A stretch of DNA of 62,350 nucleotides from a bacterium (lineage in GTDB: Bacteria > Verrucomicrobiota > Kiritimatiellia > RFP12 > UBA1067), in the NCBI GenBank assembly GCA_025360845.1, contig JANYBJ010000239.1, positions 1 through 62,350 on the forward strand, read 5' to 3'. The translations under genes were made by a program, and so were the position numbers. Below, piece after piece: positions 1-40,300 of this stretch. The notes beneath the pieces were generated by a model. It did no database searches. It saw only the letters and a list, made by a program, of their open reading frames with translations, and was not told the DNA's origin. The first letter of the stretch is position 1, and the number at the start of each line of letters is the position of its first letter.

Positions 1-1644
1 CACGCCGTTCACCGTGGCACCGCTGTTGTTGCCGAAATCGAGCAACTGAACGTAGTTCCTCCCTGCGGAAATCTTGGACGCACCGGCGGCTCCCGTGGAA
101 ACAACCGAGTCACTGTCCGCCACAGTCGTGATGTTCCCGGCGCCGGAAAGGCCGGCGATCGTCTGATTGGCGCCGCTCCAGATTTCCCACGTCGCACCGG
201 GAGCGATGGAGACCGTGCCGGGGCCCGTCGCATGGCTCGCGACCGACTTCAGGGTGCCGCCATTGATGATTGTGCCGCCGCTATAGGTGTTCGTCCCGAA
301 AAGCGTCTGCGTGCCAGGCCCCTTTTTGACCAAGGCGATATCGCCGTCGATCGAGCCCTCGAACCGGTGATTTTGGGCATCGCCGGTGGTGATGGCGGTG
401 AGCGTCGCACTGTAGATGCTGGCACTAGGGGACGCATCAGTGAGGTCTTCAAGGGTCGCCCCATACCAGTGAAAGGTGTTCCCGGCGTTCAGAGGGTACA
501 TCGCGATCGACGCCGTCGCGGCGGTGGCTTTGAACCTATAGGCGTAATACCCTAAGTGCCCCGGATCAGTGTCGTACATCGCCTGACTTTCCGCGCCGTT
601 GGTGAAAATCGCTTTTTCCTCACGCATGCCCCAGCCTGGATCACTGAAAATCACGGCTTCATAAATTCTTCCAACGGTGAGGTTGCTGAACGTAAGAACG
701 CCTGGGTTACCGTTGTAATAAAAATATTTCAAAAGAAGACCGTACCCACTGTCACCGCTGCTGCCGCCGCCGGCATGATCTAAAGTGACGCCGGTGAGCG
801 ACCATCCCACGCTGGCGGGCGCGGGTCCCGTTCCGGTGAGTCCCGCGGCGGTGAAGTAAACGCCGTTCACCATTGCAGCTTCGCCAGGATTATCGAAGTC
901 GAGCTTAAGGACATAGTTTTTGCTCGCGGAAATCTGGGCCGCGCCATCTGTTCCGGTGTAGACGGTGCCTCCGCTCTCGTTCCGAATCTGCCCCGTACCG
1001 TTAAGGCCGGCAACGGCCTGTCTGTCGGCTCCGAGCAGCCATGTGGTGCCGGAAGCGAGGCACAGCAGGCCAGAGCCGACCGCATCGACAGTCTTCGATC
1101 TCAAGGTCCCTCCGTTGAGATACGTTGCGCCGTTGTATTGACCGGACTGTGCCATCACGACCGTGCCGGCACCGTTGATGGTGACGCTGGCGCCCGAGAA
1201 GGTGTTGTCGTCCTGGTTGATCCGCCCGTTGAAAGTCAGCGTCTTGCCCGCCGCAACGACAAAGGTTTGGTTATTCCAAGCGTTCAAATCGGCGTTGAAA
1301 GTGAGGTTCGCTCCGATCACCGTGATGGGGGCTTCGTTCTTAGGCAATTTGATGCCCGAGATGGCGATGTCGGTGGCGCAACTGCCGTCCACGGTGAATG
1401 CGTTGTGCCCTTGGTAGCTGTTGTTATTAACGCTGCCGTTGACAATGCCGGAGCTGAAGAAAGCGCTGTTCCAGTTGCCCGCGACTAAGCCGGTCACCCA
1501 ATTGGCGGCATTCAACCAGTTGTTGTCCGTGCCGCCACCGGTCCATGTGCCATCCTGCTGCGCAAGGGCCGATCCGACGAAACCGGCTGTCAGCGCGACC
1601 GCCAGTGTGCATGTCCGAGTGATTCCTTGACTGCTTTGTTTCAT
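1..1644 (-). CDS. Autotransporter-associated beta-strand repeat surface protein; 3' end lies outside the window; paralog of 1671..4547
   Basis: Not in the ORF track because it has no stop in the window. Manual translation from ATG at 1644 (AAGGAG upstream) is open to base 1: MKQSSQGITRTCTLAVALTAGFVGSALAQQDGTWTGGGTDNNW..., with repeats LVKKGPGTQTLFGTNTYSGGTIINGGTL. Confidence 0.9.
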   Translation of the reverse strand, partial: MKQSSQGITRTCTLAVALTAGFVGSALAQQDGTWTGGGTDNNWLNAANWVTGLVAGNWNSAFFSSGIVNGSVNNNSYQGHNAFTVDGSCATDIAISGIKLPKNEAPITVIGANLTFNADLNAWNNQTFVVAAGKTLTFNGRINQDDNTFSGASVTINGAGTVVMAQSGQYNGATYLNGGTLRSKTVDAVGSGLLCLASGTTWLLGADRQAVAGLNGTGQIRNESGGTVYTGTDGAAQISASKNYVLKLDFDNPGEAAMVNGVYFTAAGLTGTGPAPASVGWSLTGVTLDHAGGGSSGDSGYGLLLKYFYYNGNPGVLTFSNLTVGRIYEAVIFSDPGWGMREEKAIFTNGAESQAMYDTDPGHLGYYAYRFKATAATASIAMYPLNAGNTFHWYGATLEDLTDASPSASIYSATLTAITTGDAQNHRFEGSIDGDIALVKKGPGTQTLFGTNTYSGGTIINGGTLKSVASHATGPGTVSIAPGATWEIWSGANQTIAGLSGAGNITTVADSDSVVSTGAAGASKISAGRNYVQLLDFGNNSGATVNGV

Positions 1645-1670
1645 ATACAGGATCTCCTTCCAATCGAGTT

Positions 1671-4547
1671 CTACAAGAGTATAATCATCGTGCCGGAAAA
1701 CTTTCCGTTCAACACATTCAGCATACCTGTTCCGGTAAACCAGTTGGCATGCGGATACATGGCGCCGCTGCCGACTGCGCCGTGTGTTCCAGGTTGTTTT
1801 TCGTTTCCGTCGAAATACAGCCGGGAAACGGTTTGCGTCGTGCCCCCGAGGTCCAGCCAGGCGCCGAACGCGATCGACACCGTCGAGTTGGTAGACAGGC
1901 TGCCCCCGATTCCGCTGAGGGATGAGATGCCGTCAACGGCGGTGGCCGAATCGCCCCCTACCTTATCACCTGCAAAGGCCAGCGTGTGGGTTCCGGCATT
2001 GATTTTGGCGAACGCGGTAAACGTCTGGAACATCCCTTGCGAATTGAACGCGCTGGCCGGGAAGCTGCTGCTGATCACACCGTCAACCATGAGATTGAGG
2101 CCCGAGGCTGAAAAGCCCGGACGGTTGGCCGCCTTGAACGTCAGCTTGTACGTCCCTGAAGCCGCCACCGTGACCGCCTGCGAAATGACGCCGTAGTTCT
2201 GAATATAGGCGGCATAAGAGCCGTCAAGGGCAGCGCCGGTGGCCACCCAGGGCGTGCCAGGGGCGGCAATGCCGGAGGTCGTGTCGAACGTCCACGTCGC
2301 GCCGGTCGGATTGTAGCCCCAGGTCCCGTTGGCCAGGGCGTCGTGCGTCTCGAACGACGCGTTGTCAAGGGTGACCGTGCCCTCCGGCGGCGAAGGCAAC
2401 TCCAGTTTCAGCGTTCCGTCGTTGACGGTGGTGGAACCGGTGTACGCGACCGGCCCGGCGAGCGTTTGCGTGCCGCTTCCCTGCTTCACCAACGAGACGG
2501 CGCCGTTGATCGCGCCCTCGAACCGGCGGTTTTGGGCATCGCCGAGGGTGAGCGTCACGCCGTTGGTGAACAGGTTGACCGCGGCGGGCGGAAGCGCTTC
2601 CAGGCTGGCGGCGAACCAGTGGAACGAGTTCCCGGGGTTAATCGGGACCATGGTGACCGTCGCCGTTTCGGCTTTCGCCTCGAACTGATAAGAGTAATAC
2701 CCGACGGTCCCCGGATCGGTGTTGATCAGTTGGATGCTGTCAGGGCCATTGGCGAACGTCGCATTCTGCCAGCGGTAACCCCAGACGCCTATTTTGGTAT
2801 AGAGCACGATGTCGTAGCACTTGCCGATGGTGAGGTTGTAGAACGTGAGCACGCCGGGGTTGCCTCCATAGAGGAAGTCCGACATCAGTTGATCGTACCC
2901 GCTGCCGCCATCGGCGAAGTAGGGCGCGGTCGCTCCTCCGAGCAACCAGCCCGTGCCGCTGTTGTTGCTCACGTTGTCGAACGTCACTCCGTTCACCTCT
3001 GCGCCTGCGCCATTACCGAAGTCGAGCTTTTGGATGTAGTTCTTGCCGATGGAAATCTGGGCCGCCCCGTCAGCGCCGGTGGACACAGCGCCGCTGAACG
3101 CCTCAACCGTACCGGCGCCGGAAAGGCCGGCAACGGTCTGATGGGCGCCGTCCCAGATTTTCCACGTCGCACCGGAAGCGACGTCGACCGCGCCGGCGCC
3201 GACCGCGCCGGACGCGGTTGTCGTCAAGGTGCCGGCCTTGACCGCAGTGCCGCCGGCGTAGGGGTTCGCCGCGGCGAGCGTCTGCACACCGGAGCCCTGT
3301 TTGACCAGCGAGGTGTCGCCGTCGATCAGCCCCTCGAAGCGGTAGTCATTGGCATTGCCGACGGTCAGCGGAGGCGACAGTTCCAGCGTCGCCCCGTACC
3401 AGTGATACGTGGCCGCAGTGAGAGGGGCCATGGTGACCGTCACCGTAGGGTCGGTCGCCAGGAACGCGTACGCGTAATAGCCGTTGTCCCCCGGATTGGT
3501 GTTGAGCATCTGGTGGCTGTCCGAGCCGTTGGTGAAGGTCGCATTCTGCGGGCGATAGCCCCAGCCGGGACTCGAAAAAACCACGACCTCGTACGTCCTG
3601 CCGACAATGAGGCCGTTGAACGTGAGCGTGCCCGTGCCTCCGTAATAGAAGCCTGACAGCAGCCGTCCGTAACCTGTTTGGCCGGGATCTTCGTTGAAAA
3701 TATTCGCCGTGCCGGTCAGCGACCAGCCCGGACCGCTGGTGCCGACTCCGGAGAACTTAACTCCGTTGACGGTGGCGCCGCCGCCGCCGTTGGGTTCGAA
3801 GTCGAGGGCGTAGACATAGTTCTTGCTGGCGGAAATCTGGGTCGAACCGTCAGGACCGGTGGACAGTACTCCATTGCTGATGCGTGTCACGTGACCCGCA
3901 CCGGCCAGCCCGCCGACGGTCTGGCGGGCTGGGCTGCGATCCCATGTCGTGCCGGCGCCGACGGTCATCGGGCCGGGGCCGATCCCGTTGGCCGTAAGGG
4001 TCTTCAAGGTGCCGCCGTTGAGGATGGTTCCGCCTGTGTAGAGGCCGGCTCTCGTCATCACGACCGTTCCTTCACCGTTCATGGTGACGCTGGAACCGGT
4101 GGCGTTGCCTTCATCCTGGTTAATCCGCGCGTTGAAGGTCAGCGTCTTGCCGGCTGCCACGACAAACGTTTGAGGACTCCACGCGTTCAAATCCGTGTTG
4201 AACGTGAGATTCGCCCCTGTCACCGTGATGGGGGCTTCGTCCTTGGGAATTTTAATTCCGCCGATCGCGATGTCCATCGGGCAACTGGCGTCCACCGTGA
4301 TCGCACGGTGCCCTTGGTAGCTGTTGTTATTAACGCTGCCGTTGACAACGCCGGAGCTAAACAAAGCGCTGTTCCAGTTGCCCGCGACTACGCCGTCCAC
4401 CCAGTTGGCGGCATTCAACCAGTTGTTGTCCGTGCCGCCACCGGTCCATGTGCCATCCTGCTGCGCGAGGGCCGACCCGACGAAACCGGCTGTCAGCGCG
4501 ACCGCCAGTGTGCCTATCCGATTGATGCCTTGACCGATCTGTTTCAT
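1671..4547 (-). CDS. Secreted autotransporter-associated beta-strand repeat protein (958 aa) with no C-terminal beta-barrel
   Basis: Signal peptide ending SALA. Three passenger-associated repeats (GEGTVVMTRAGLYTGGTILNGGTL, LVKQGSGVQTLAAANPYAGGTAVKAGTL, LVKQGSGTQTLAGPVAYTGSTTVNDGTL). AAGGAG RBS upstream. Confidence 0.88.
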   Translation of the reverse strand: MKQIGQGINRIGTLAVALTAGFVGSALAQQDGTWTGGGTDNNWLNAANWVDGVVAGNWNSALFSSGVVNGSVNNNSYQGHRAITVDASCPMDIAIGGIKIPKDEAPITVTGANLTFNTDLNAWSPQTFVVAAGKTLTFNARINQDEGNATGSSVTMNGEGTVVMTRAGLYTGGTILNGGTLKTLTANGIGPGPMTVGAGTTWDRSPARQTVGGLAGAGHVTRISNGVLSTGPDGSTQISASKNYVYALDFEPNGGGGATVNGVKFSGVGTSGPGWSLTGTANIFNEDPGQTGYGRLLSGFYYGGTGTLTFNGLIVGRTYEVVVFSSPGWGYRPQNATFTNGSDSHQMLNTNPGDNGYYAYAFLATDPTVTVTMAPLTAATYHWYGATLELSPPLTVGNANDYRFEGLIDGDTSLVKQGSGVQTLAAANPYAGGTAVKAGTLTTTASGAVGAGAVDVASGATWKIWDGAHQTVAGLSGAGTVEAFSGAVSTGADGAAQISIGKNYIQKLDFGNGAGAEVNGVTFDNVSNNSGTGWLLGGATAPYFADGGSGYDQLMSDFLYGGNPGVLTFYNLTIGKCYDIVLYTKIGVWGYRWQNATFANGPDSIQLINTDPGTVGYYSYQFEAKAETATVTMVPINPGNSFHWFAASLEALPPAAVNLFTNGVTLTLGDAQNRRFEGAINGAVSLVKQGSGTQTLAGPVAYTGSTTVNDGTLKLELPSPPEGTVTLDNASFETHDALANGTWGYNPTGATWTFDTTSGIAAPGTPWVATGAALDGSYAAYIQNYGVISQAVTVAASGTYKLTFKAANRPGFSASGLNLMVDGVISSSFPASAFNSQGMFQTFTAFAKINAGTHTLAFAGDKVGGDSATAVDGISSLSGIGGSLSTNSTVSIAFGAWLDLGGTTQTVSRLYFDGNEKQPGTHGAVGSGAMYPHANWFTGTGMLNVLNGKFSGTMIILL

Positions 4548-4570
4548 ATGCAGACTCTCCTTGCAACGTG

Positions 4571-4576
4571 ATTATA
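4571..4576 (-). promoter_or_regulatory. Candidate -10 box (TATAAT) for the surface-protein genes
   Basis: ATTATA on + strand reads TATAAT on -, ~25 nt upstream of the 4547 ATG. No good -35 box. Confidence 0.45.
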
Positions 4577-4651
4577 CGCACTCCAAACAGGAAACACTCC
4601 TATCCATTTATTAACCACGACTATAACGCTATAGTCACTGAAAAGTCGATG

Positions 4652-33340: not shown

Positions 33341-34810
33341 TTAGCCCTTTTTAACCAATCCGTGCTGGGTCTTCTCCCACACGAACGGGTCGCGGAAGAA
33401 TTGGATGACGGCCCGCCACCCGCTGTAGCTCATCATCATCCAGTACACCGGCGTCAGAAGCGCCCACCACATCAGACTGTCGTTCTTGCGCTTGCAGCAG
33501 CCGAGCAGGTTGATGTAGATAAACACGAAGTTGCCGAGAAAGAGACAGACCGCGCCCGCCGCGAACACCGGCCCGGGAAACATCTGCGCCGCACCCTCGG
33601 GACGGAACACGAACCACACCAGCGCCATGGCCCAGAAAACCGGATTCACCAGCACGGAGAAGGTCACCCCTCCGATCAATAACTGGTAGTGCAGAAAGTT
33701 GACGAACCCCAACTCCTTCACCAGTTTGAGCGGCTGCCGCATGTGTACGAACCACGTCTGGATATACCCCTTCTGCCAGCGCGTGCGCTGCTTGATCCAG
33801 AATTGGAAAACGCTGCACGCCTCTTCCCACGTCGTGGTCTCGAGCATCCGCGTGGTATAGCCCGCGCGCCCCAGCCGCACGCCCAGGTCGCAGTCTTCCG
33901 TCACGTTGTAGGCGTCCCAGCCCATCAGCTCCTGAAGAATCCGGGTCTTGAAGTGATTCGAGGTGCCGCCCAGCGGGATCACCGCACCCAGCGCGGCCAG
34001 CCCCGGCAACTGCAGGTCGAACCAAGCCGAGTACTCCGCGGTGAACCAGCGCGTCAGCACGTTCTGCCGCGGGTTGTAATAGTTCAGGCGCGACTGCACG
34101 CACGCCACGTTGGCGGGTGACGCCTCGAAGGCCATCACCGCCTTCTTGAGCTGGTCCTTCTCCGGCAAATCCTCGGCGTCGTAGATCACCAGATACTCGC
34201 CTGTGGCCAGATGCAGCCCGATGTTGCACGCCTTGGGCTTGGTGCGCGGGAACGACTCCGGAATCTCGGTCACGCGGAAGCCCGGCGGCATCGTCAGCGC
34301 GCGTGCGGCGGCCAGCGTCACAGAGTCGTCCGCCTCCAGCAGGATCTGCACGTCTTTCTTGTCCGCCGGGTAGTCCATCGCCGCGAGCGAAGCCACCATC
34401 TGCTTCACGGTCTCGGGCTCTTTGTACATCGGCACCAGAAGCGAGAAGAGCGGCCACGCGCGCGGCTCCTGCGCGGCGATCTCGCTGGCGGAGAATTTCA
34501 AAATGGCGGAGGGCGAGAGCGACGCGCGGATCACCACGAACTTGTAAAGGGTCATGACCACATAGAACAGCGTGCAGACCGCGATCAGGCCCTGTGCGGT
34601 CTTCAGCGGCCAAACAACAAACGCGGCCGCCAGCGCCGCCGCCAGCGACACCATGACGATCTTTTGCGTACGCGTCAGCGGCTGCGACGCGCTCCAGTCG
34701 GGGCGCCGGCGCGACAGCTCCAACGGGTCGGCCGAAGCCGCCGTTCGCTGAGAAGCCCCCTGCTGTTCGGTCACGTCACTCATTCGCTGTCCATCCCTCT
34801 CGATCCCCAT
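33341..34810 (-). CDS. Processive family 2 glycosyltransferase (cellulose-synthase-like)
   Basis: LVPMYKE, TKPKACN, IYDAED, TEDCDLG and QRTRW (QxxRW), with flanking TM helices. Start may be 34783. Confidence 0.9.
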   Translation of the reverse strand: MGIERDGQRMSDVTEQQGASQRTAASADPLELSRRRPDWSASQPLTRTQKIVMVSLAAALAAAFVVWPLKTAQGLIAVCTLFYVVMTLYKFVVIRASLSPSAILKFSASEIAAQEPRAWPLFSLLVPMYKEPETVKQMVASLAAMDYPADKKDVQILLEADDSVTLAAARALTMPPGFRVTEIPESFPRTKPKACNIGLHLATGEYLVIYDAEDLPEKDQLKKAVMAFEASPANVACVQSRLNYYNPRQNVLTRWFTAEYSAWFDLQLPGLAALGAVIPLGGTSNHFKTRILQELMGWDAYNVTEDCDLGVRLGRAGYTTRMLETTTWEEACSVFQFWIKQRTRWQKGYIQTWFVHMRQPLKLVKELGFVNFLHYQLLIGGVTFSVLVNPVFWAMALVWFVFRPEGAAQMFPGPVFAAGAVCLFLGNFVFIYINLLGCCKRKNDSLMWWALLTPVYWMMMSYSGWRAVIQFFRDPFVWEKTQHGLVKKG

Positions 34811-34934
34811 GTTTTAAATTGCTGCAACTATACCATAACTCCCTGTGCCTGACAAATGACGCCTCGCGCCAATTTTGATCACTGTGTTTTCACGGAGCTA
34901 CGATTCATCTGATTGATTTGCACGTGTAGTGATC

Positions 34935-34963
34935 TTGAACAGCCCCCCTAATGTGGCGTATAC
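34935..34963 (+). promoter_or_regulatory. Sigma70-type promoter TTGAAC-N17-TATACT for the ATPase-PIN island
   Basis: TTGAAC 34935-34940, 17-nt spacer, TATACT 34958-34963. Confidence 0.65.
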
Positions 34964-35014
34964 TCTACCCCGATTGTGAAAGGACGTCATCTCTGTGCTA
35001 GCATCAGGACACTT

Positions 35015-36331
35015 ATGAAACAACGTGATACGATTACAGGTTTAAGTGTAAGCGGTTTCAAGTCGATTGCCGATGAGCAACATCTCGACATCCGTCCCTT
35101 GACCATTTTGGCTGGCGCGAACAGTTCTGGAAAGTCTAGTTTCATGCAGCCTCTTTTGCTGCTGAAACAGACGCTGGAGGCTCCCGGCGACCCAGGCGCG
35201 TTGTGGCTTGGCGGACCAAACGTGAAGTTTACGTCTGCAGAGCAATTTCTGACACGGTTTTCGCGAGATGGTGGCGAGTTTTCGGTTGGCCTTTTTATGG
35301 GTGAAAACGACCACATAGAAATGACGTATGCTTATTCTAAGGATTCAGGATTTTCCGCCAAACAACTTGTGGTGTCTCTTGACGGAGACTCTTTTACAAT
35401 AAAAACTGACATGTCTCATGACGATATTGTTGAAATCCTACCATCGGCAATTGATGATAAGCGAAAACACATCGAGAAACAGTCGAAAGGAAGCGTCAGA
35501 TGGACCGTCAATCGTGATCGTTGCTTTCTGGAACTCGAATTGGAACAATCAAATCGCCCTCTTTATTGGTTTGGACCGGACGAAGTCATACCACTACGGT
35601 CATATTACTCGCTGATTCAAAATGTGATTCATCTTCCGGGGTTGCGTGGCAACCCTCAGCGCGATTATGCTAGGCAGGCCGTGGGACGGCGATTCCCCGG
35701 CACATTCGACACCTATGTTGCAAGCGTAATTGAACAATGGCAAAAGAGTAAATCAGAAAACTTAAAATCTTTGGGTGCCGCCCTAGAAAACATGGGGCTC
35801 ACGTGGAAAGTAAAAGCTGCCCCGCTGAATGACACCATGATGGAGCTAAAAGTGGGACGTCTTCCCCACAGTAAACGAGGTGGTGCGAGTGATCTTGTGA
35901 GTATCGCCGATGTTGGGTTCGGTGTCTCACAATCGTTGCCAGTTATCGTTGCCCTGCTAGCGGCTAAAAGAGGGCAATTGCTCTATCTGGAGCAACCAGA
36001 GATTCATTTGCATCCGCTGGCGCAGCGAAAACTGGCTCAAGAACTTGCGAGTGCTGCTAAACGTGGTGTCATTGTTATAGTGGAGACCCATAGTGCATTG
36101 TTGTTGCGAGAAATCCAGACCCTAGTGGCTAAGAATGAATTACCGTCTAAGGAAGTTGCACTTCACTGGTTCAGCCGTAATGTGGACGGCGCGACGACAA
36201 TTCAGTCGGCAGAACTGGACAAAAACGGTGCATTTGGGACATGGCCTGTGGATTTTGATGAGACCGACATGGCATCCGAAGATGCCTACTTGAACGCGGT
36301 CGAGGCACGGAGGGCGTTCCATGCCGAGTAA
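35015..36331 (+). CDS. AAA_15/AAA_21-type ABC-like ATPase with a DUF3696-like C-terminus
   Basis: GFKSI, Walker A GANSSGKS, signature GFGVSQ, Walker B LEQPE.HLHP, ETHS and GTWPVDFDE. Likely ATG at 35015 (track start 34976). Confidence 0.88.
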   Translation: MKQRDTITGLSVSGFKSIADEQHLDIRPLTILAGANSSGKSSFMQPLLLLKQTLEAPGDPGALWLGGPNVKFTSAEQFLTRFSRDGGEFSVGLFMGENDHIEMTYAYSKDSGFSAKQLVVSLDGDSFTIKTDMSHDDIVEILPSAIDDKRKHIEKQSKGSVRWTVNRDRCFLELELEQSNRPLYWFGPDEVIPLRSYYSLIQNVIHLPGLRGNPQRDYARQAVGRRFPGTFDTYVASVIEQWQKSKSENLKSLGAALENMGLTWKVKAAPLNDTMMELKVGRLPHSKRGGASDLVSIADVGFGVSQSLPVIVALLAAKRGQLLYLEQPEIHLHPLAQRKLAQELASAAKRGVIVIVETHSALLLREIQTLVAKNELPSKEVALHWFSRNVDGATTIQSAELDKNGAFGTWPVDFDETDMASEDAYLNAVEARRAFHAE

Positions 36332-36788
36332 AATACCCTCTCGGCAACTTGTGGTGGATGCGAACGTCATGCGATCTTCAGGAGAGACCGAGCATCCCAT
36401 TTCTTCGAGATGCCGACAAACGTTGAACGACATTCTTGCCATTTGCCATCATGCGATTGTTGACGCACGCTTGCAAAGCGAGTGGGGGCGTCACGCATCG
36501 CATCGTGCCACAAAATGGCTAGGCACAATGACGCGGCGAGGCAAGATCGATCAAGCATCAGGCTATGTTGCTGACATTAAGTTCACGAAAGTTCGTTCAG
36601 ACGACCGCGCCATCATCGAAAAAGACCGGATGTTGGTGGATATCGCCTATGGTTCAGATAAAATCATCATTTCCATGGATGACAAAATTCGACAGGCTCT
36701 GGAACGCACTGGCAACGGGAAATTAACGAGCGAAATTCGCTGGTTCAACCCATGTACAGCCCCTGCAAACTATCTCGAAAACTTATAG
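36321..36788 (+). CDS. PIN-like domain protein
   Basis: LVVDANV, SEW, KDRMLV and IISMDDK give the acidic quartet pattern. Overlaps the ATPase stop by 11 nt. Confidence 0.7.
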   Translation: MPSKIPSRQLVVDANVMRSSGETEHPISSRCRQTLNDILAICHHAIVDARLQSEWGRHASHRATKWLGTMTRRGKIDQASGYVADIKFTKVRSDDRAIIEKDRMLVDIAYGSDKIIISMDDKIRQALERTGNGKLTSEIRWFNPCTAPANYLENL

Positions 36789-36817
36789 TTTGATCGGAAT
36801 ATTTCTGGTTCGTCATC

Positions 36818-37372
36818 ATGAACATACGGAACGACATAATACAATCTGCGCGGACAATCCGGATCAAGCCAAATGAGGCGATGCTACCGATCAAAGTGCC
36901 TAACGCCACACCTGAAATCCTACTTGCAAATGCTTTTGATGATGAACAGGCGCTTTTGGCAAAAGTCCGCTATAACCGGCTGATCGACCTTTTCCTCGGC
37001 ATTACGACGCATTCTCTACAGAATCATCTGCGCACAACGGTTAAGGGTATCGGACAAGTCGAAATCGACGAGCTTTATGTTGGTTTGAACCGTCGGGGAA
37101 GTCAGTTCATTGTTCCGGTTCAAGCAAAGGTCGGCAAAAACCAGCTGGGCCCTGTGCAAACGCAACACGCCATCTCCCTTTGTGCAAAACGCTATCCTGA
37201 ATTGATATGCCGCCCGGTCTCTGTTCATGCGCTGAGTGGCGACCGGATCGCTCTGTTTGAACTGACGTTGAGCGAGGGCGAAATACGAATCGTCGATCAA
37301 AAGCACTATATGTTGGTGCCGGCCTCTGACATCACGGCGGACGATCTGCGCCGATACGGAATGGGAAGTTGA
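36818..37372 (+). CDS. PD-(D/E)xK restriction-endonuclease-like protein, probably N-terminally truncated
   Basis: EIDELYVG...FIVPVQAK catalytic-like motif and DEQALLAKVRYNRLID. Appears shorter than the family as I recall it. Confidence 0.6.
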   Translation: MNIRNDIIQSARTIRIKPNEAMLPIKVPNATPEILLANAFDDEQALLAKVRYNRLIDLFLGITTHSLQNHLRTTVKGIGQVEIDELYVGLNRRGSQFIVPVQAKVGKNQLGPVQTQHAISLCAKRYPELICRPVSVHALSGDRIALFELTLSEGEIRIVDQKHYMLVPASDITADDLRRYGMGS

Positions 37373-40300
37373 CGCCTCACATCACATTTCCGCCCGAGCT
37401 TCCGATCACCGCACACGCCGATGCCATCGCGGCGGCGCTGCGCAACCACCAGGTCGTCATCGTCTGCGGCGACACCGGCTCGGGCAAGACCACGCAGCTT
37501 CCCAAGATCGCGCTCAAAGCGGGCCGCGGCCGCCGCGGCCTGATCGGCTGCACCCAGCCTCGCCGCCTCGCCGCCCTCGCCATGGCGCGCCGCGTGTCCG
37601 AGGAGTTCGGCCAGGAGCCCGGCGGCTTCGTCGGCTACCAGCACCGCTTCGACAAAAAGCTCTCTCCCGAAACCGTGGTCAAGTTCATGACCGACGGCAT
37701 CCTGCTCGCCGAGACGCGCCGAGACCGCCTCTTCCGCGCCTACGACACGCTCATCATCGACGAGGCCCACGAGCGCTCGCTCAACATCGACTTTCTTCTC
37801 GGCATCCTCAAACGCGTGCTGCCCCGCCGCCTGGACCTCAAGCTCATCATCAGCTCAGCAACCCTCGATGTGGAGCGCTTCTCCGCCTTCTTTGACCGCG
37901 CCCCCATCGTCTCCGTGCCCGGCCGGCTCCACCCCATCGAAACGCGCTGGCGTCCCGCCGAGGAGGACGACGACCCCGACCTGCCGCGCCAGATCGCCAA
38001 CGCCTGCGACGAACTCATCTCCGAAGGCCCCGGCGACATCCTCGTCTTCCTGCCCGGCGAGCGCGACATCCGCGACGCCACCGAAACCCTCACCGGCCGC
38101 CGCCTGCCACACACCGAAATCATTCCCCTGCTCGCCTCGCTGCCCGCAGGCGAACAACAGCGCGCCTTCAAGCTCTCCTCCAACCGACGCATCATCCTTT
38201 CCACCAACGTCGCAGAAACCTCGGTTACCCTGCCCGGCATCCGCTACGTGATCGATTCCGGCCTCGTGCGGCTCAGCCGCTACAACCCGCGCACGCAGGT
38301 GCAGCGCCTCCAGATCGAGCCGGTCTCGCAGGCCAGCGCCAACCAGCGTAAAGGCCGCTGCGGCCGCATCGCGCCCGGCATCTGCATCCGGCTCTACGGC
38401 GAGGACGACTTCAAGAAGCGCGACGACTATACGCCACCCGAGATCCTGCGCGCCAGCCTCGCGGGCGTGATCCTGACCATGCTCGACCTCAAGCTCGGCG
38501 AGATCGAAACCTTCCCCTTCATCGACCCGCCCTCCTCGACCATGATCCGCGAGGGCTACCGCGAGCTCGACATGATCGGCGCGATCGAAATGGGACACCC
38601 GACGCTCGACACTCGACGCTCGGAGACGGATGCATCCCGCGAGTCGAGCGTCGAAGGTCGACCCTCCCTCACCCACCTCGGCCGCCAGCTCGCGCGCCTG
38701 CCGCTCGAGCCCGCGCTGGCCCGCATCCTCTTCGCCGCGCATCACGAGAAATCCCTTGCCGACACGCTCATCGTCGTGGCCGCGCTGGAGTGCGACGACC
38801 CGCGCCGCCGCCCAATCGAGAAACAGGCCGAGGCCGATAAGCTGCACGCCCGCTTTCTCTCTCCCGTCTCCGACTTCGCCGCGATCATCCGCCTCTGGCG
38901 CTGGTACCGCGACCAGACCGCAAAAGCCTCGCAGTCGGCCCTGCGCCGCCTCTGCAAGGACAACTTCCTCTCCTATCCGCGCATCCGCGACTGGACCGAC
39001 CTGCGCGACCAGCTCGAACGCCTCTGCAAGGAACTTCAGCTCGATGTCACATCCGCCGCAGGCGGCGACGCGGGCCTTCACCGCGCACTGCTCACCGGCC
39101 TGCTCGGCAACATCGGCAAACGCGACCCCGAGACCAGCGAATACCGCGGCGCACGCGGCATCCGCTTCGCGCTCTTCCCCGGCTCCGGCCTCGCCAAACT
39201 CAAAGAGCAGAAGCCTGACCCCGCCGCGCCGCGCCATGGCCAAAAGACGATCTCGCGAGAATGGATCATGACCGGTGAGCTGGTCGAGACCTCCCGTCTC
39301 TTCGCCCGTACCGCCGCCTGCATCGACCCCGAGTGGATCGAGCCCGCCGCCAAACGCCTCTGCAAATACAGCTACCACTCGGCCTGGTGGGACCCCGACC
39401 GCGGCTTTGTGCGCGTGAAAGAAAAGGTCACGCTCTTCGGACTCGTGCTGGTCGAGGCCCGCACGCGCGACTACAGCCGCATCAACCCCGTCGAGGCGCG
39501 CGCCATCTTCATCCGCGAAGGCCTTGTCGCGGGAGCCTTCCCAGCGCCCCAGCCGCCCTTCCTGTGTGCGAACCTGACGCGCATCCGCGCCTTGCTCGAT
39601 GCCGAAGAGAAGACGCGGCAGCACGGCATGCTCTTCGATCCGGAAACAGCCAGCGCCTTCTACGACACGCGTTTGCCGCAGACGGTCAGCAACGCTTCTG
39701 ACTTGCGCGAGTGGCTCAAGGGGGCGGAAGTCAGAAGTCAGAAGTCAGAGGTCGGCGATCGGCAATCCGCAATCGCTGCGAATCATCCGTCCTCTGACCT
39801 CTCGCTCTTCATGGTGGACGCCGATTTGCCGCCCGTGCGCGATCTGGCGCAGGATTTCCCGGACGCGATCACGCTCAGCGGCAACCGCCTCGCCCTCACC
39901 TATCGTCACGCACAAGGCGAGCCGGACGACGGCGTCACCTGCACGGTTCCCGCGCCGCTCTTGCCGCTTGCCGCGGCCTGGCGCAGCGACTGGCTCGTGC
40001 CCGGCATGCTGGACGAGAAACTGCGCTGGATGGTCAACGTGCTGCCGACCAAGTTCCGCCGCCTGCTCCAACCGATCGACGAAACCCTCGCGATGTGCCG
40101 CTCCAAAATGACGCCCGGACGCGGCGTACTCACCGACGCCTTCTCAGACGCGCTCTACTCCGTTCGTGGCGTGCGCGTGCCGCCGGAGACGTGGAAAGAA
40201 GAGGCCTACCCCGACCATCTGCGCATGCGTTTCGCCGCCGTGAACGAGGACGGACGTGAGCTGGGCAGCGGACGCAACATCGCGCCGCTGGTCAAGATTT

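What the first reader, a model, noticed from the sequence alone, without database searches (positions are those of the whole stretch)
34935..36788. ABC-type ATPase + PIN nuclease pair with its own strong promoter: candidate anti-phage system
Seen: a compositionally foreign (AT-richer) island with a near-consensus promoter, an intact AAA_15/21-type ATPase and an overlapping 155-aa PIN-like gene with its acidic residues retained. Established: this ATPase class is the sensor in two-gene defence systems with nuclease effectors (PARIS AriA/AriB TOPRIM, Septu PtuA/PtuB HNH, retron and Gabija-related ATPases). Inference: the same logic with a PIN RNase effector, a pairing I do not recognise as a named system. 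It sits beside a restriction-like nuclease remnant.
Basis: partly seen in the sequence, partly recalled or inferred. Interest (0 to 1): 0.72.

Follow-up and report, generated by a model that had tools for sequence, protein, structure and literature searches.

The report
Divergent HEC-03-type ATPase–PIN defence pair
A 2.5-kb foreign, AT-richer insert carries an ABC-type ATPase gene overlapping a small PIN-fold RNA-cutting enzyme gene; the pair is real and widely conserved, but it is a distant branch of HEC-03, a two-gene anti-phage system already named and tested.

Summary
A low-GC island (34857-37369; GC about 0.47-0.51 against about 0.65) carries an intact AAA_15/AAA_21 ABC ATPase (35015-36331), a 155-aa gene overlapping it by 11 nt (36321-36788), and a 5'-truncated type II restriction endonuclease.

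The 155-aa protein matches no Pfam, NCBIfam, PHROG or PADLOC model. It still folds confidently (pLDDT 96) as a PIN-like nuclease, and D13, E54, D102 and D120 are conserved across 102 diverse relatives.

An ATPase homologue lies directly upstream of the PIN gene in 67 of 67 related loci from many phyla, usually with overlapping stop and start codons. No third gene is conserved.

The pairing is not unnamed. HEC-03 (Payne et al., bioRxiv 2024; in PADLOC) is an ABC-ATPase(DUF3696)+PIN pair with the same gene order. It was shown to defend E. coli, and both genes were needed.

The window's ATPase is homologous to the HEC-03 ATPase (BLASTP 1e-21, same EQPE/GFGVSQ/THS motifs). Its PIN family matches the HEC-03 PIN family only profile-to-profile (86.9%, E 4e-6).

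- The promoter is a 9/12 match, not near-consensus.
- The Walker B motif is a conserved non-canonical E-Q.

Verdict: a new, currently undetected member of a known kind. Interest is modest.

The parts
34857..37369 (.). Low-GC island of 2513 bp inserted between a GT2 glycosyltransferase gene (minus strand, start 34810) and hrpA
   Evidence: GC is 0.46-0.52 against 0.64-0.68 in the flanks. The island is bounded by the direct repeat TGACGCCTC. One independent contig covers both junctions.
34857..34865 (+). Left copy of the junction direct repeat TGACGCCTC (15/20 identical over 34857-34876); preceded by A, so it reads ATGACGCCTC
   Evidence: (family D4)
37370..37378 (+). Right copy of the junction direct repeat; it overlaps the restriction-remnant stop codon and the TTG start of hrpA (37369)
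   Evidence: (family D4)
34935..34964 (+). Sigma-70-like promoter candidate TTGAAC-18-TATACT (9/12)
   Evidence: It is untested because no RNA runs are available.
35015..36331 (+). ABC ATPase of the NsnB/HEC-03 clade, 438 aa (alternative GTG start at 34976 gives 451 aa). Walker A is at 35114-35140, the non-canonical Walker B E326-Q327 at 35990-35995, the H-loop H359 at 36089-36091, and the DUF3696-like tail at 36143-36256.
36321..36788 (+). 155-aa PIN-like nuclease, translationally coupled to the ATPase by an 11-nt overlap. Conserved acidic residues are D13 (36357-36359), E54 (36480-36482), D102 (36624-36626) and D120 (36678-36680).
36818..37372 (+). 5'-truncated type II restriction endonuclease (184 aa of about 262) with no methyltransferase beside it. 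It is a passenger or relic, not part of the conserved pair.
   Evidence: (absent from all related loci)

Best explanation
The island carries a divergent member of the HEC-03 class of two-gene conflict systems: a DUF3696-tailed ABC ATPase and, translationally coupled to it, a small catalytically competent PIN-like ribonuclease.

Shown here:
- Both genes are intact.
- They are inherited as a unit across many phyla.
- The ATPase belongs to the NsnB/HEC-03 clade.
- The small protein has a PIN fold with a conserved D-E-D-D set.
- Its family is remotely homologous to the HEC-03 PIN.

Inferred from HEC-03, Menshen, PARIS and Septu:
- An ATPase oligomer holds the PIN nuclease inactive through its C-terminal DUF3696 helices.
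- A phage-derived cue is sensed by the variable inserts of the ATPase.
- ATP-dependent rearrangement then releases or activates the PIN, which cuts host or phage RNA and stops the infection (abortive-infection type).
- The conserved natural E-Q in place of the Walker B D-E suggests that ATP binding, with slow or no hydrolysis, sets the switch.
For: - Strict linkage: an ATPase homologue lies immediately upstream on the same strand in 67 of 67 loci that hold a relative of the 155-aa protein (61 are from different species' genomes).
- Coupling: the stop and start codons overlap by 4 nt in 31 loci, 14 nt in 10 and 11 nt in 8.
- Co-inheritance: ATPase and PIN similarity scores co-vary (Spearman 0.67, n=51).
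- ATPase clade: PADLOC NsnB 5.6e-56, HEC-03 ATPase model 1.4e-41, PDC-M55A 1.7e-28.
- Direct comparison with the tested HEC-03 ATPase: BLASTP 1e-21, 33% identity, with shared DVGFGVSQ, EQPEIHLHP and E(T/S)HS motifs. The HEC-03 ATPase itself scores 2.3e-52 on NsnB, so these are sister families.
- DUF3696 tail: detected in 37 of 56 family ATPases.
- PIN: pLDDT 96.3; best PDB matches are PIN-like nucleases; the D13/E54/D102/D120 set is conserved; the profile hits the ZC3H12 PIN over the DR..D motif.
- PIN homology with HEC-03: hhalign against the HEC-03 PIN family gives probability 86.9%, E 4.2e-6 over 110 columns, aligning D13, E54 and D102.
- HEC-03 itself has the same gene order and a 14-nt overlap. 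It defends E. coli, needs both genes, and is toxic on induction.
- The Menshen analysis predicts that NsnB DUF3696 pairs clamp the PIN-like domain of NsnC.
- The window copy is a compositionally foreign insert beside a restriction relic. The closest relatives sit beside NB-ARC/SLFN and Mrr_N genes.
Against: - There is no functional data for this family.
- The PADLOC HEC-03 PIN model misses it (0 of 81 members), and the PIN-to-PIN link rests on one profile-profile score below 90%.
- Most related loci lie among housekeeping genes, and few have defence neighbours.
- Within Thermoanaerobaculia (9 genomes) and Planctomycetota (7 genomes) the pair keeps the same chromosomal neighbours, which is unusual for a mobile defence gene.
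- No relatives were found on plasmids or phages, and only one in 2.9 million viral contigs.
- The sequestration-and-release mechanism is by analogy only.
Confidence: 0.7

Rival explanations
1. A toxin-antitoxin-like addiction or stress module. The PIN is a toxin and the ATPase its protein antitoxin or regulator. The pair stabilises itself in the chromosome or responds to stress, without a dedicated anti-phage role.
For: A PIN fold with conserved catalytic residues. Tight translational coupling. HEC-03 is toxic on induction. Most related loci lie among housekeeping genes.
Against: The upstream partner is a 440-aa ABC ATPase with no antitoxin-like DNA-binding domain. Its tested homologue protects against phages and needs both genes. 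TA function and abortive-infection defence are not mutually exclusive.
Confidence: 0.13
2. A degenerate Menshen system: an NsnB-NsnC core that has lost NsnA and the C-terminal effector domain of NsnC.
For: The best PADLOC hit of the ATPase is NsnB (5.6e-56). In Menshen, NsnB is followed by a protein with an N-terminal PIN-like domain that the DUF3696 tail is predicted to bind.
Against: No ParB-DUF262 gene lies in the island, and none appears among the upstream-neighbour families shared by two or more of 59 related loci. The PIN keeps the D-E-D-D set that all Menshen inPIN families lack. The 150-190 aa length and the two-gene layout are conserved across more than 1000 sequence clusters, which is not what decay produces. 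The HEC-03 ATPase scores equally well on the NsnB model.
Confidence: 0.05
3. A housekeeping RNA-processing enzyme (a HARP/Nob1-like endonuclease acting on tRNA or rRNA precursors) with an ATPase cofactor.
For: The top structural matches are protein-only RNase P (HARP) and Nob1. The pair keeps a position next to a class II aminoacyl-tRNA synthetase in seven Planctomycetota genomes. There are few defence neighbours.
Against: TM-scores are only about 0.5, and VapC and ZC3H12 match similarly. Distribution across phyla is patchy, one species here and there. The window copy is a recent foreign insert. Both partners are homologous to a validated defence pair.
Confidence: 0.07
4. In this genome the cassette is an inactive relic, like the truncated restriction gene beside it.
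For: It sits next to a decayed R-M gene. Expression could not be tested.
Against: Both ORFs are full length relative to homologues. Every invariant family residue is present in the window copy. A ribosome-binding site and the coupling overlap are intact.
Confidence: 0.05

Closest known systems
HEC-03 (Hma-embedded candidate 03; Payne et al., bioRxiv 10.1101/2024.01.29.577857; PADLOC-DB v2 models PDLC04147 for the PIN and PDLC04148 for the ATPase; tested pair from Pseudomonas cichorii, WP_025259138 + WP_025259137)
   Same: Both are two-gene cassettes with a roughly 440-460 aa ABC ATPase carrying a DUF3696 tail, followed by an overlapping gene for a roughly 155-aa stand-alone PIN protein. The ATPases share the EQPEIHLHP, DVGFGVSQ and THS motifs. 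The PIN families align profile-to-profile across the catalytic D, E and D.
   Different: The ATPases are only 33% identical over their C-terminal halves. The window ATPase scores 141 bits on the HEC-03 ATPase model, against 765 bits for the true member. The PIN is not detected by the HEC-03 PIN model, so PADLOC would not call the system. This clade is found in environmental phyla (Planctomycetota, Acidobacteriota, Chloroflexota, Kiritimatiellia and others) rather than in Pseudomonadota embedded in Hma systems. It is untested.
Menshen (NsnABC; Millman et al. 2022; domain analysis in PMC12065111)
   Same: The ATPase belongs to the same clade as NsnB, with an ABC fold, a DUF3696 tail, a GxG signature and a non-canonical Walker B (EN in NsnB, EQ here). 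In both, the downstream partner begins with a PIN-fold domain.
   Different: There is no NsnA (ParB-DUF262) sensor. The partner is a stand-alone PIN with its catalytic residues conserved, rather than an inactive PIN fused to a C-terminal toxin domain.
PARIS (AriA/AriB) and Septu (PtuA/PtuB)
   Same: Both follow the same logic: an ABC ATPase of the AAA_15/AAA_21 type paired with a small nuclease that it binds and controls. AriA models hit the window ATPase at 1e-23.
   Different: Their effectors are TOPRIM (AriB) or HNH (PtuB), not PIN. Their ATPases lack the DUF3696 tail and score far lower here.
VapBC toxin-antitoxin systems
   Same: A small PIN-fold metallonuclease with a D-E-D-D active site; VapC structures are among the fold matches.
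   Different: There is no VapB-type antitoxin; the partner is a 440-aa ABC ATPase encoded upstream. The window protein has no hit to the Pfam PIN models.

Membership tests
HEC-03 | ABC ATPase with a C-terminal DUF3696 tail, homologous to the HEC-03 ATPase | tested here: met
   PADLOC HEC-03 ATPase model 1.4e-41. BLASTP against the tested protein 1e-21 with shared motifs. DUF3696 scores 0.0014 in the window protein and is detected in 37 of 56 family members. The score is far below that of a core member (141 against 765 bits).
HEC-03 | PIN-domain partner homologous to the HEC-03 PIN | tested here: inconclusive
   The PADLOC PIN model PDLC04147 hits the tested PIN at 9.4e-86 but 0 of 81 members of this family. 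Profile-profile hhalign gives probability 86.9%, E 4.2e-6 over 110 columns, with the catalytic D, E and D aligned.
HEC-03 | Gene order ATPase then PIN, adjacent and overlapping, with no other obligatory gene | tested here: met
   The window has an 11-nt overlap; HEC-03 has a 14-nt overlap. The order holds in 67 of 67 related loci. No third gene is conserved.
HEC-03 | Phage defence that requires both genes | not testable with these tools
   Known only for the Pseudomonas cichorii pair expressed in E. coli.
Menshen (NsnABC) | NsnA with ParB-DUF262 and ParBDB domains encoded upstream of the ATPase | tested here: not met
   The island holds only the ATPase, the PIN and the restriction relic. DUF262 is not among the families shared by two or more of 59 upstream neighbours.
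Menshen (NsnABC) | NsnB-type ABC ATPase with a DUF3696 tail | tested here: met
   PADLOC NsnB 5.6e-56 over profile positions 2-331 of 345. The model is broad, however: the HEC-03 ATPase scores 2.3e-52 on it.
Menshen (NsnABC) | NsnC: an inactive PIN-like N-terminal domain fused to a C-terminal nuclease or toxin domain | tested here: not met
   The 155 aa are filled by the PIN fold alone. The D-E-D-D set is conserved. No PADLOC NsnC hit.
PIN-like nuclease superfamily | Rossmann-like alpha/beta/alpha PIN fold | tested here: met
   The model has pLDDT 96.3. Foldseek probabilities are 0.9-1.0 to HARP, Nob1, ZC3H12C and VapC, with TM about 0.5.
PIN-like nuclease superfamily | Conserved acidic residues (D, E, D, D) of the metal-binding active site | tested here: met
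   D13 and D102 are invariant; E54 and D120 are at least 90% conserved in 102 relatives. KDRMLVD...IISxDD aligns with the DDR...SND motif of the ZC3H12 PIN. The three-dimensional clustering was not checked.
PIN-like nuclease superfamily | Match to a curated PIN sequence model | tested here: not met
   The window protein has no Pfam hit. Only 4 of 102 relatives touch PIN_3, at 3e-4 or weaker.
VapBC toxin-antitoxin | A small DNA-binding antitoxin gene immediately upstream of the PIN toxin | tested here: not met
   The upstream gene is the 438-aa ABC ATPase.

The most novel reading that the evidence does not exclude
This clade would be the NsnA-independent branch, with a catalytically active PIN, of one 'DUF3696 ABC ATPase plus PIN' superfamily that also contains HEC-03 and the NsnB-NsnC core of Menshen. 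On this reading Menshen arose from such a two-gene module by inactivating the PIN into a docking domain, fusing new toxins to it and adding NsnA.

The conserved natural Walker B E-Q would mean that these ATPases act as ATP-binding latches rather than motors.

The branch is large: more than 1100 clusters at 50% identity. It is chromosomally stable in several environmental phyla and invisible to current defence finders.
Probability: 0.35. Interest if true: 0.45.

Novelty: new member of a known kind. Interest (0 to 1): 0.27.

Why it matters
The finding does not reveal a new kind of immune system. The ABC-ATPase plus PIN pairing has been named (HEC-03) and shown to work.

Its value is practical and evolutionary.

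- A large, phylogenetically broad branch of this class escapes PADLOC because the PIN model is too narrow. It comprises 1119 clusters at E<=1e-3 and spans Planctomycetota, Acidobacteriota, Chloroflexota, Actinomycetota, Kiritimatiellia and others. Gene callers also often truncate the PIN gene to 86 aa.
- The family alignment made here could seed a better model.
- The active-PIN two-gene form, the shared DUF3696 tail and the conserved E-Q Walker B give testable links between HEC-03 and Menshen, both of which still lack a mechanism.

Tried and rejected
1. Sequence-model searches for the 155-aa protein in Pfam, NCBIfam, PADLOC and PHROGs gave nothing usable.
2. AlphaFold2 with only 12 close homologues gave a poor model (pLDDT 57), which I discarded. 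The 102-sequence alignment was needed.
3. The search for related loci with the 102-sequence alignment failed for lack of a conserved stretch. A 22-sequence alignment worked.
4. The single HEC-03 PIN sequence against the family profile was uninformative (probability 1.1%). A profile of the HEC-03 PIN family was needed.
5. A search for a conserved third gene (NsnA/DUF262, an RNA ligase or anything else) found only lineage-specific housekeeping synteny: glycosyltransferase and NUDIX genes, and a class II aaRS. I therefore rejected a three-gene system.
6. There were no plasmid or phage relatives of the PIN and one viral contig.
7. No RNA-seq runs hold the region, so the promoter and expression remain untested.
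8. Laying the contigs of four DNA runs (X1, X2, X5, X6) on the region showed no island-free variant.
I could not search the rest of the genome for NsnA, a cognate methyltransferase or empty sites in relatives.
10. The Krishnan et al. 2020 ABC ATPase classification could not be read.
11. The restriction remnant has no solved-structure relative.
Full report
WHAT IS THERE

Between a GT2 glycosyltransferase gene (minus strand, start 34810) and hrpA (start 37369), the GC content drops from about 0.65 to 0.46-0.52. The low-GC stretch holds three co-directional ORFs:
- an ATPase at 34976/35015..36331;
- a 155-aa ORF at 36321..36788;
- a 184-aa ORF at 36818..37372.

The ATG at 35015 has AGGA 5 nt upstream and is the more likely ATPase start.

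The 155-aa ORF starts inside the last codons of the ATPase gene (ATGCCGAGTAA, an 11-nt overlap) and has GGAGG upstream.

An independent assembly of the source sediment metagenome covers 33800-37503 in one contig, with no differences and even depth. The island and both junctions are therefore real.

THE ATPase

Pfam gives AAA_21 (1.9e-23), AAA_15 (2.3e-20) and a sub-threshold DUF3696 tail (0.0014). PADLOC gives NsnB of Menshen (5.6e-56), the HEC-03 ATPase model (1.4e-41) and PDC-M55A (1.7e-28). AriA, HEC-01A, OLD and GajA score much lower.

In an alignment of 59 family ATPases:
- Walker A (G-x-N-S-S-G-K-S) is invariant.
- The signature-like D-V-G-F-G-V-S-Q is conserved.
- The H-loop E-T-H-S is invariant.
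- The Walker B position reads E(59/59)-Q(53/59)-P-E instead of the canonical D-E.

The tested HEC-03 ATPase has the same MEQPEIHLHP, and Menshen NsnB has E-N. The ATPase is therefore intact, but of a clade with a deliberately non-canonical catalytic dyad. In ABC ATPases an E-to-Q change at this position classically permits ATP binding but not hydrolysis; that is established knowledge, and applying it here is inference.

DUF3696 is detected in 37 of 56 family members.

THE 155-aa PROTEIN

No curated model recognises it. It has about a dozen close homologues of exactly 155 aa. An exhaustive search found 1119 cluster representatives at E<=1e-3 and 399 at E<=1e-10, nearly all of 150-190 aa.

In 102 relatives of 28-62% identity, D13, W66 and D102 are invariant. 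E54 and D120 are at least 90% conserved, as are R32, C42, H43, W55, H58, S60, K75 and K101.

A profile of the close homologues weakly hits the ZC3H12 (Regnase) PIN domain. The match aligns KDRMLVD...IISxDD with DDRFIV...VSND (E 0.07).

AlphaFold2 with the shallow alignment failed (pLDDT 57). With the deep alignment it gave pLDDT 96.3 and pTM 0.89. The best PDB matches of that model are all PIN-like nucleases: HARP protein-only RNase P (7og5, E 2.9e-4), archaeal and planctomycete HARPs, Nob1, ZC3H12C, several VapC toxins and SMG6.

IS THE PAIR A UNIT?

Every locus that holds a relative of the small protein has an ATPase homologue (37-64% identity) immediately upstream on the same strand. This covers six metagenome contigs and 61 species-representative genomes, 67 of 67 in all.

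The stop and start codons overlap by 4 nt in 31 loci, 14 nt in 10 and 11 nt in 8. The two proteins' similarity scores to the window copies co-vary (Spearman 0.67, n=51).

The hosts span Kiritimatiellia, Verrucomicrobia, Planctomycetota, Acidobacteriota, Chloroflexota, Actinomycetota, Myxococcota, Desulfobacterota, Armatimonadota, Hydrogenedentes, Poribacteria, Nitrospinota, Cyanobacteria, Chlorobi and some Proteobacteria.

IS THERE A THIRD GENE?

Clustering all flanking ORFs found no family in more than 9 loci. The recurrent ones are lineage-specific housekeeping neighbours:
- glycosyltransferase and NUDIX genes in nine Thermoanaerobaculia genomes;
- a class II aminoacyl-tRNA synthetase in seven Planctomycetota genomes.

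Pfam scans of 59 upstream and 57 downstream neighbours are heterogeneous. They include a few R-M genes but no recurrent DUF262 or RNA ligase. The restriction relic of the window is absent from all related loci. The conserved unit is the two genes.

WHAT IS IT RELATED TO?

The preprint by Payne et al. (10.1101/2024.01.29.577857) describes HEC-03 as an ABC ATPase with an associated PIN protein. It reduced plaquing of phages in E. coli, needed both genes and was toxic when induced.

Its Table S2 gives the tested pair from Pseudomonas cichorii: a 'DUF3696 domain-containing protein' followed by a 157-aa protein that overlaps it by 14 nt.

The window ATPase aligns to that ATPase at 1e-21 (33% identity over the C-terminal half, 44% around the P-loop), with the same motifs. 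The HEC-03 ATPase itself scores 2.3e-52 on the NsnB model and 765 bits on its own narrow model. The window family scores 167-194 bits on NsnB and 127-141 bits on the HEC-03 model. The three are therefore sister groups in one DUF3696-tailed clade.

The PADLOC PIN model (named HEC-03A in PADLOC) recognises the tested PIN at 9.4e-86, but none of 81 members of the window's PIN family. A profile of the HEC-03 PIN family does match the profile of the window's family, with probability 86.9% and E 4.2e-6 over 110 columns. The match aligns VVD-x-x-V, G-x-x-T-H, E-[WY]-x-x-H-x-S and the K/S-D-R motif, which correspond to D13, E54 and D102.

Same architecture, homologous ATPases and remotely homologous PINs together make this a divergent branch of the HEC-03 class.

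RELATION TO MENSHEN

The domain study of Menshen (PMC12065111) shows three components:
- NsnA is ParB-DUF262.
- NsnB is an ABC ATPase with a DUF3696 tail.
- NsnC is an inactive PIN-like N-terminal domain fused to a C-terminal toxin. Paired DUF3696 tails are predicted to clamp the inactive PIN.

That study mined genomes starting from NsnA, so NsnA-less pairs were outside its scope.

The window's system lacks NsnA and has a stand-alone PIN with its catalytic residues. It is not Menshen, but it probably shares the ATPase-PIN docking principle.

HOW IT MOST LIKELY WORKS

Shown: a conserved, co-translated ATPase-PIN pair, a catalytically competent-looking PIN, a DUF3696 tail and a Walker B E-Q.

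Inferred by analogy with HEC-03, Menshen, PARIS and Septu:
- The ATPase oligomer binds the PIN through the DUF3696 tails and silences it.
- A phage cue acts on the variable ATPase inserts.
- ATP-dependent rearrangement frees or activates the PIN.
- The PIN cleaves RNA and aborts the infection.

The trigger and the RNA target are unknown.

CAVEATS

- Defence-island association is weak outside the closest relatives, which sit beside NB-ARC/SLFN and Mrr_N genes.
- The pair is syntenic within two lineages.
- It is absent from plasmid and phage records and nearly absent from viral contigs.
- A TA-like or housekeeping RNA-processing role therefore cannot be excluded. Homology to a validated defence pair and the foreign composition of the window copy make defence the better reading.

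THE PROMOTER

TTGAAC-18-TATACT (34935-34964) matches 9 of 12 positions and has no extended -10. It is a reasonable candidate in the AT-rich leader, not a near-consensus promoter, and no RNA data exist to test it.

THE ISLAND'S EDGES

The 9-mer TGACGCCTC occurs at 34857 and at 37370, exactly at the two compositional boundaries, and is 15/20 identical when extended. A 9-mer shared between two 40-nt boundary windows is expected about 0.006 times by chance; that is my post hoc estimate.

The left copy reads ATGACGCCTC. The right copy reads TTGACGCCTC and is the present hrpA start, which overlaps the stop of the restriction relic. The block seems to have landed in the first codons of hrpA, with a short target duplication or microhomology and no mobility gene.

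VERDICT

The pairing is a known, named and tested kind (HEC-03), of which this is a divergent, currently undetected member. Earlier notes of this scan, read after I had reached this result, report the same conclusion for similar cassettes in other genomes.

Noticed in passing
window 34856-34876 and 37369-37389: The island is flanked by the direct repeat TGACGCCTC (15/20 identical when extended). The left copy reads ATGACGCCTC, which looks like the original hrpA start. hrpA now begins with TTG at 37369, overlapping the stop codon of the restriction relic. The insertion may therefore have changed the hrpA start codon and cut the gene off from its promoter. No integrase or transposase lies in the island.
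   Followed up: partly
window 36818-37372: The truncated restriction endonuclease has full-length relatives of 262-269 aa. One is on a Paracoccus plasmid directly after a DNA cytosine methyltransferase and a Vsr nickase gene. Others are on 4.3-kb ColE1-type plasmids of Klebsiella and Salmonella, where they are annotated as hypothetical. The window copy has no methyltransferase beside it.
   Followed up: partly
L012, L013, L014, L018, L019, L039, L049 (Planctomycetota); L030, L038, L041, L044, L045, L046, L053, L054, L065 (Thermoanaerobaculia): Within these two lineages the ATPase-PIN pair keeps the same chromosomal neighbours across species. In Planctomycetota the neighbour is a class II aminoacyl-tRNA synthetase just upstream; in Thermoanaerobaculia it is glycosyltransferase and NUDIX genes. 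This suggests vertical inheritance or a fixed insertion hotspot, which is unusual for a defence cassette.
   Followed up: partly
window 36321-36788; P0012, P0013, P0014: Gene callers often call only the C-terminal 86 aa of the PIN gene, starting at M70. This happened in the window's own record. The call removes D13 and E54 and hides the family from domain searches.
   Followed up: no
window 36393-36497 (residues H25, C31, C42, H43, H58 of the PIN): The PIN family has a conserved set of His and Cys residues (TxHP...C-R...I-C-H...E-W-x-x-H-x-S), and the HEC-03 PIN family has a comparable T-H...C...C pattern. This could be a structural metal site or part of the ATPase-docking surface. It was not tested.
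   Followed up: no
L001 / L007 (Kiritimatiellia MAG), 1-4580: The closest relatives of the pair (PIN 75% identical) sit directly after an NB-ARC/SLFN-AlbA_2 NTPase gene (Avs-like), two unassigned genes and an Mrr_N protein gene. This is a typical defence island.
   Followed up: no
window 34827-34855, minus strand: The best promoter-like site in the region (TTGTCA-17-TATAGT with TG, 10/12) faces the other way, towards the GT2 glycosyltransferase gene. Its -35 element lies against the island's left edge.
   Followed up: no
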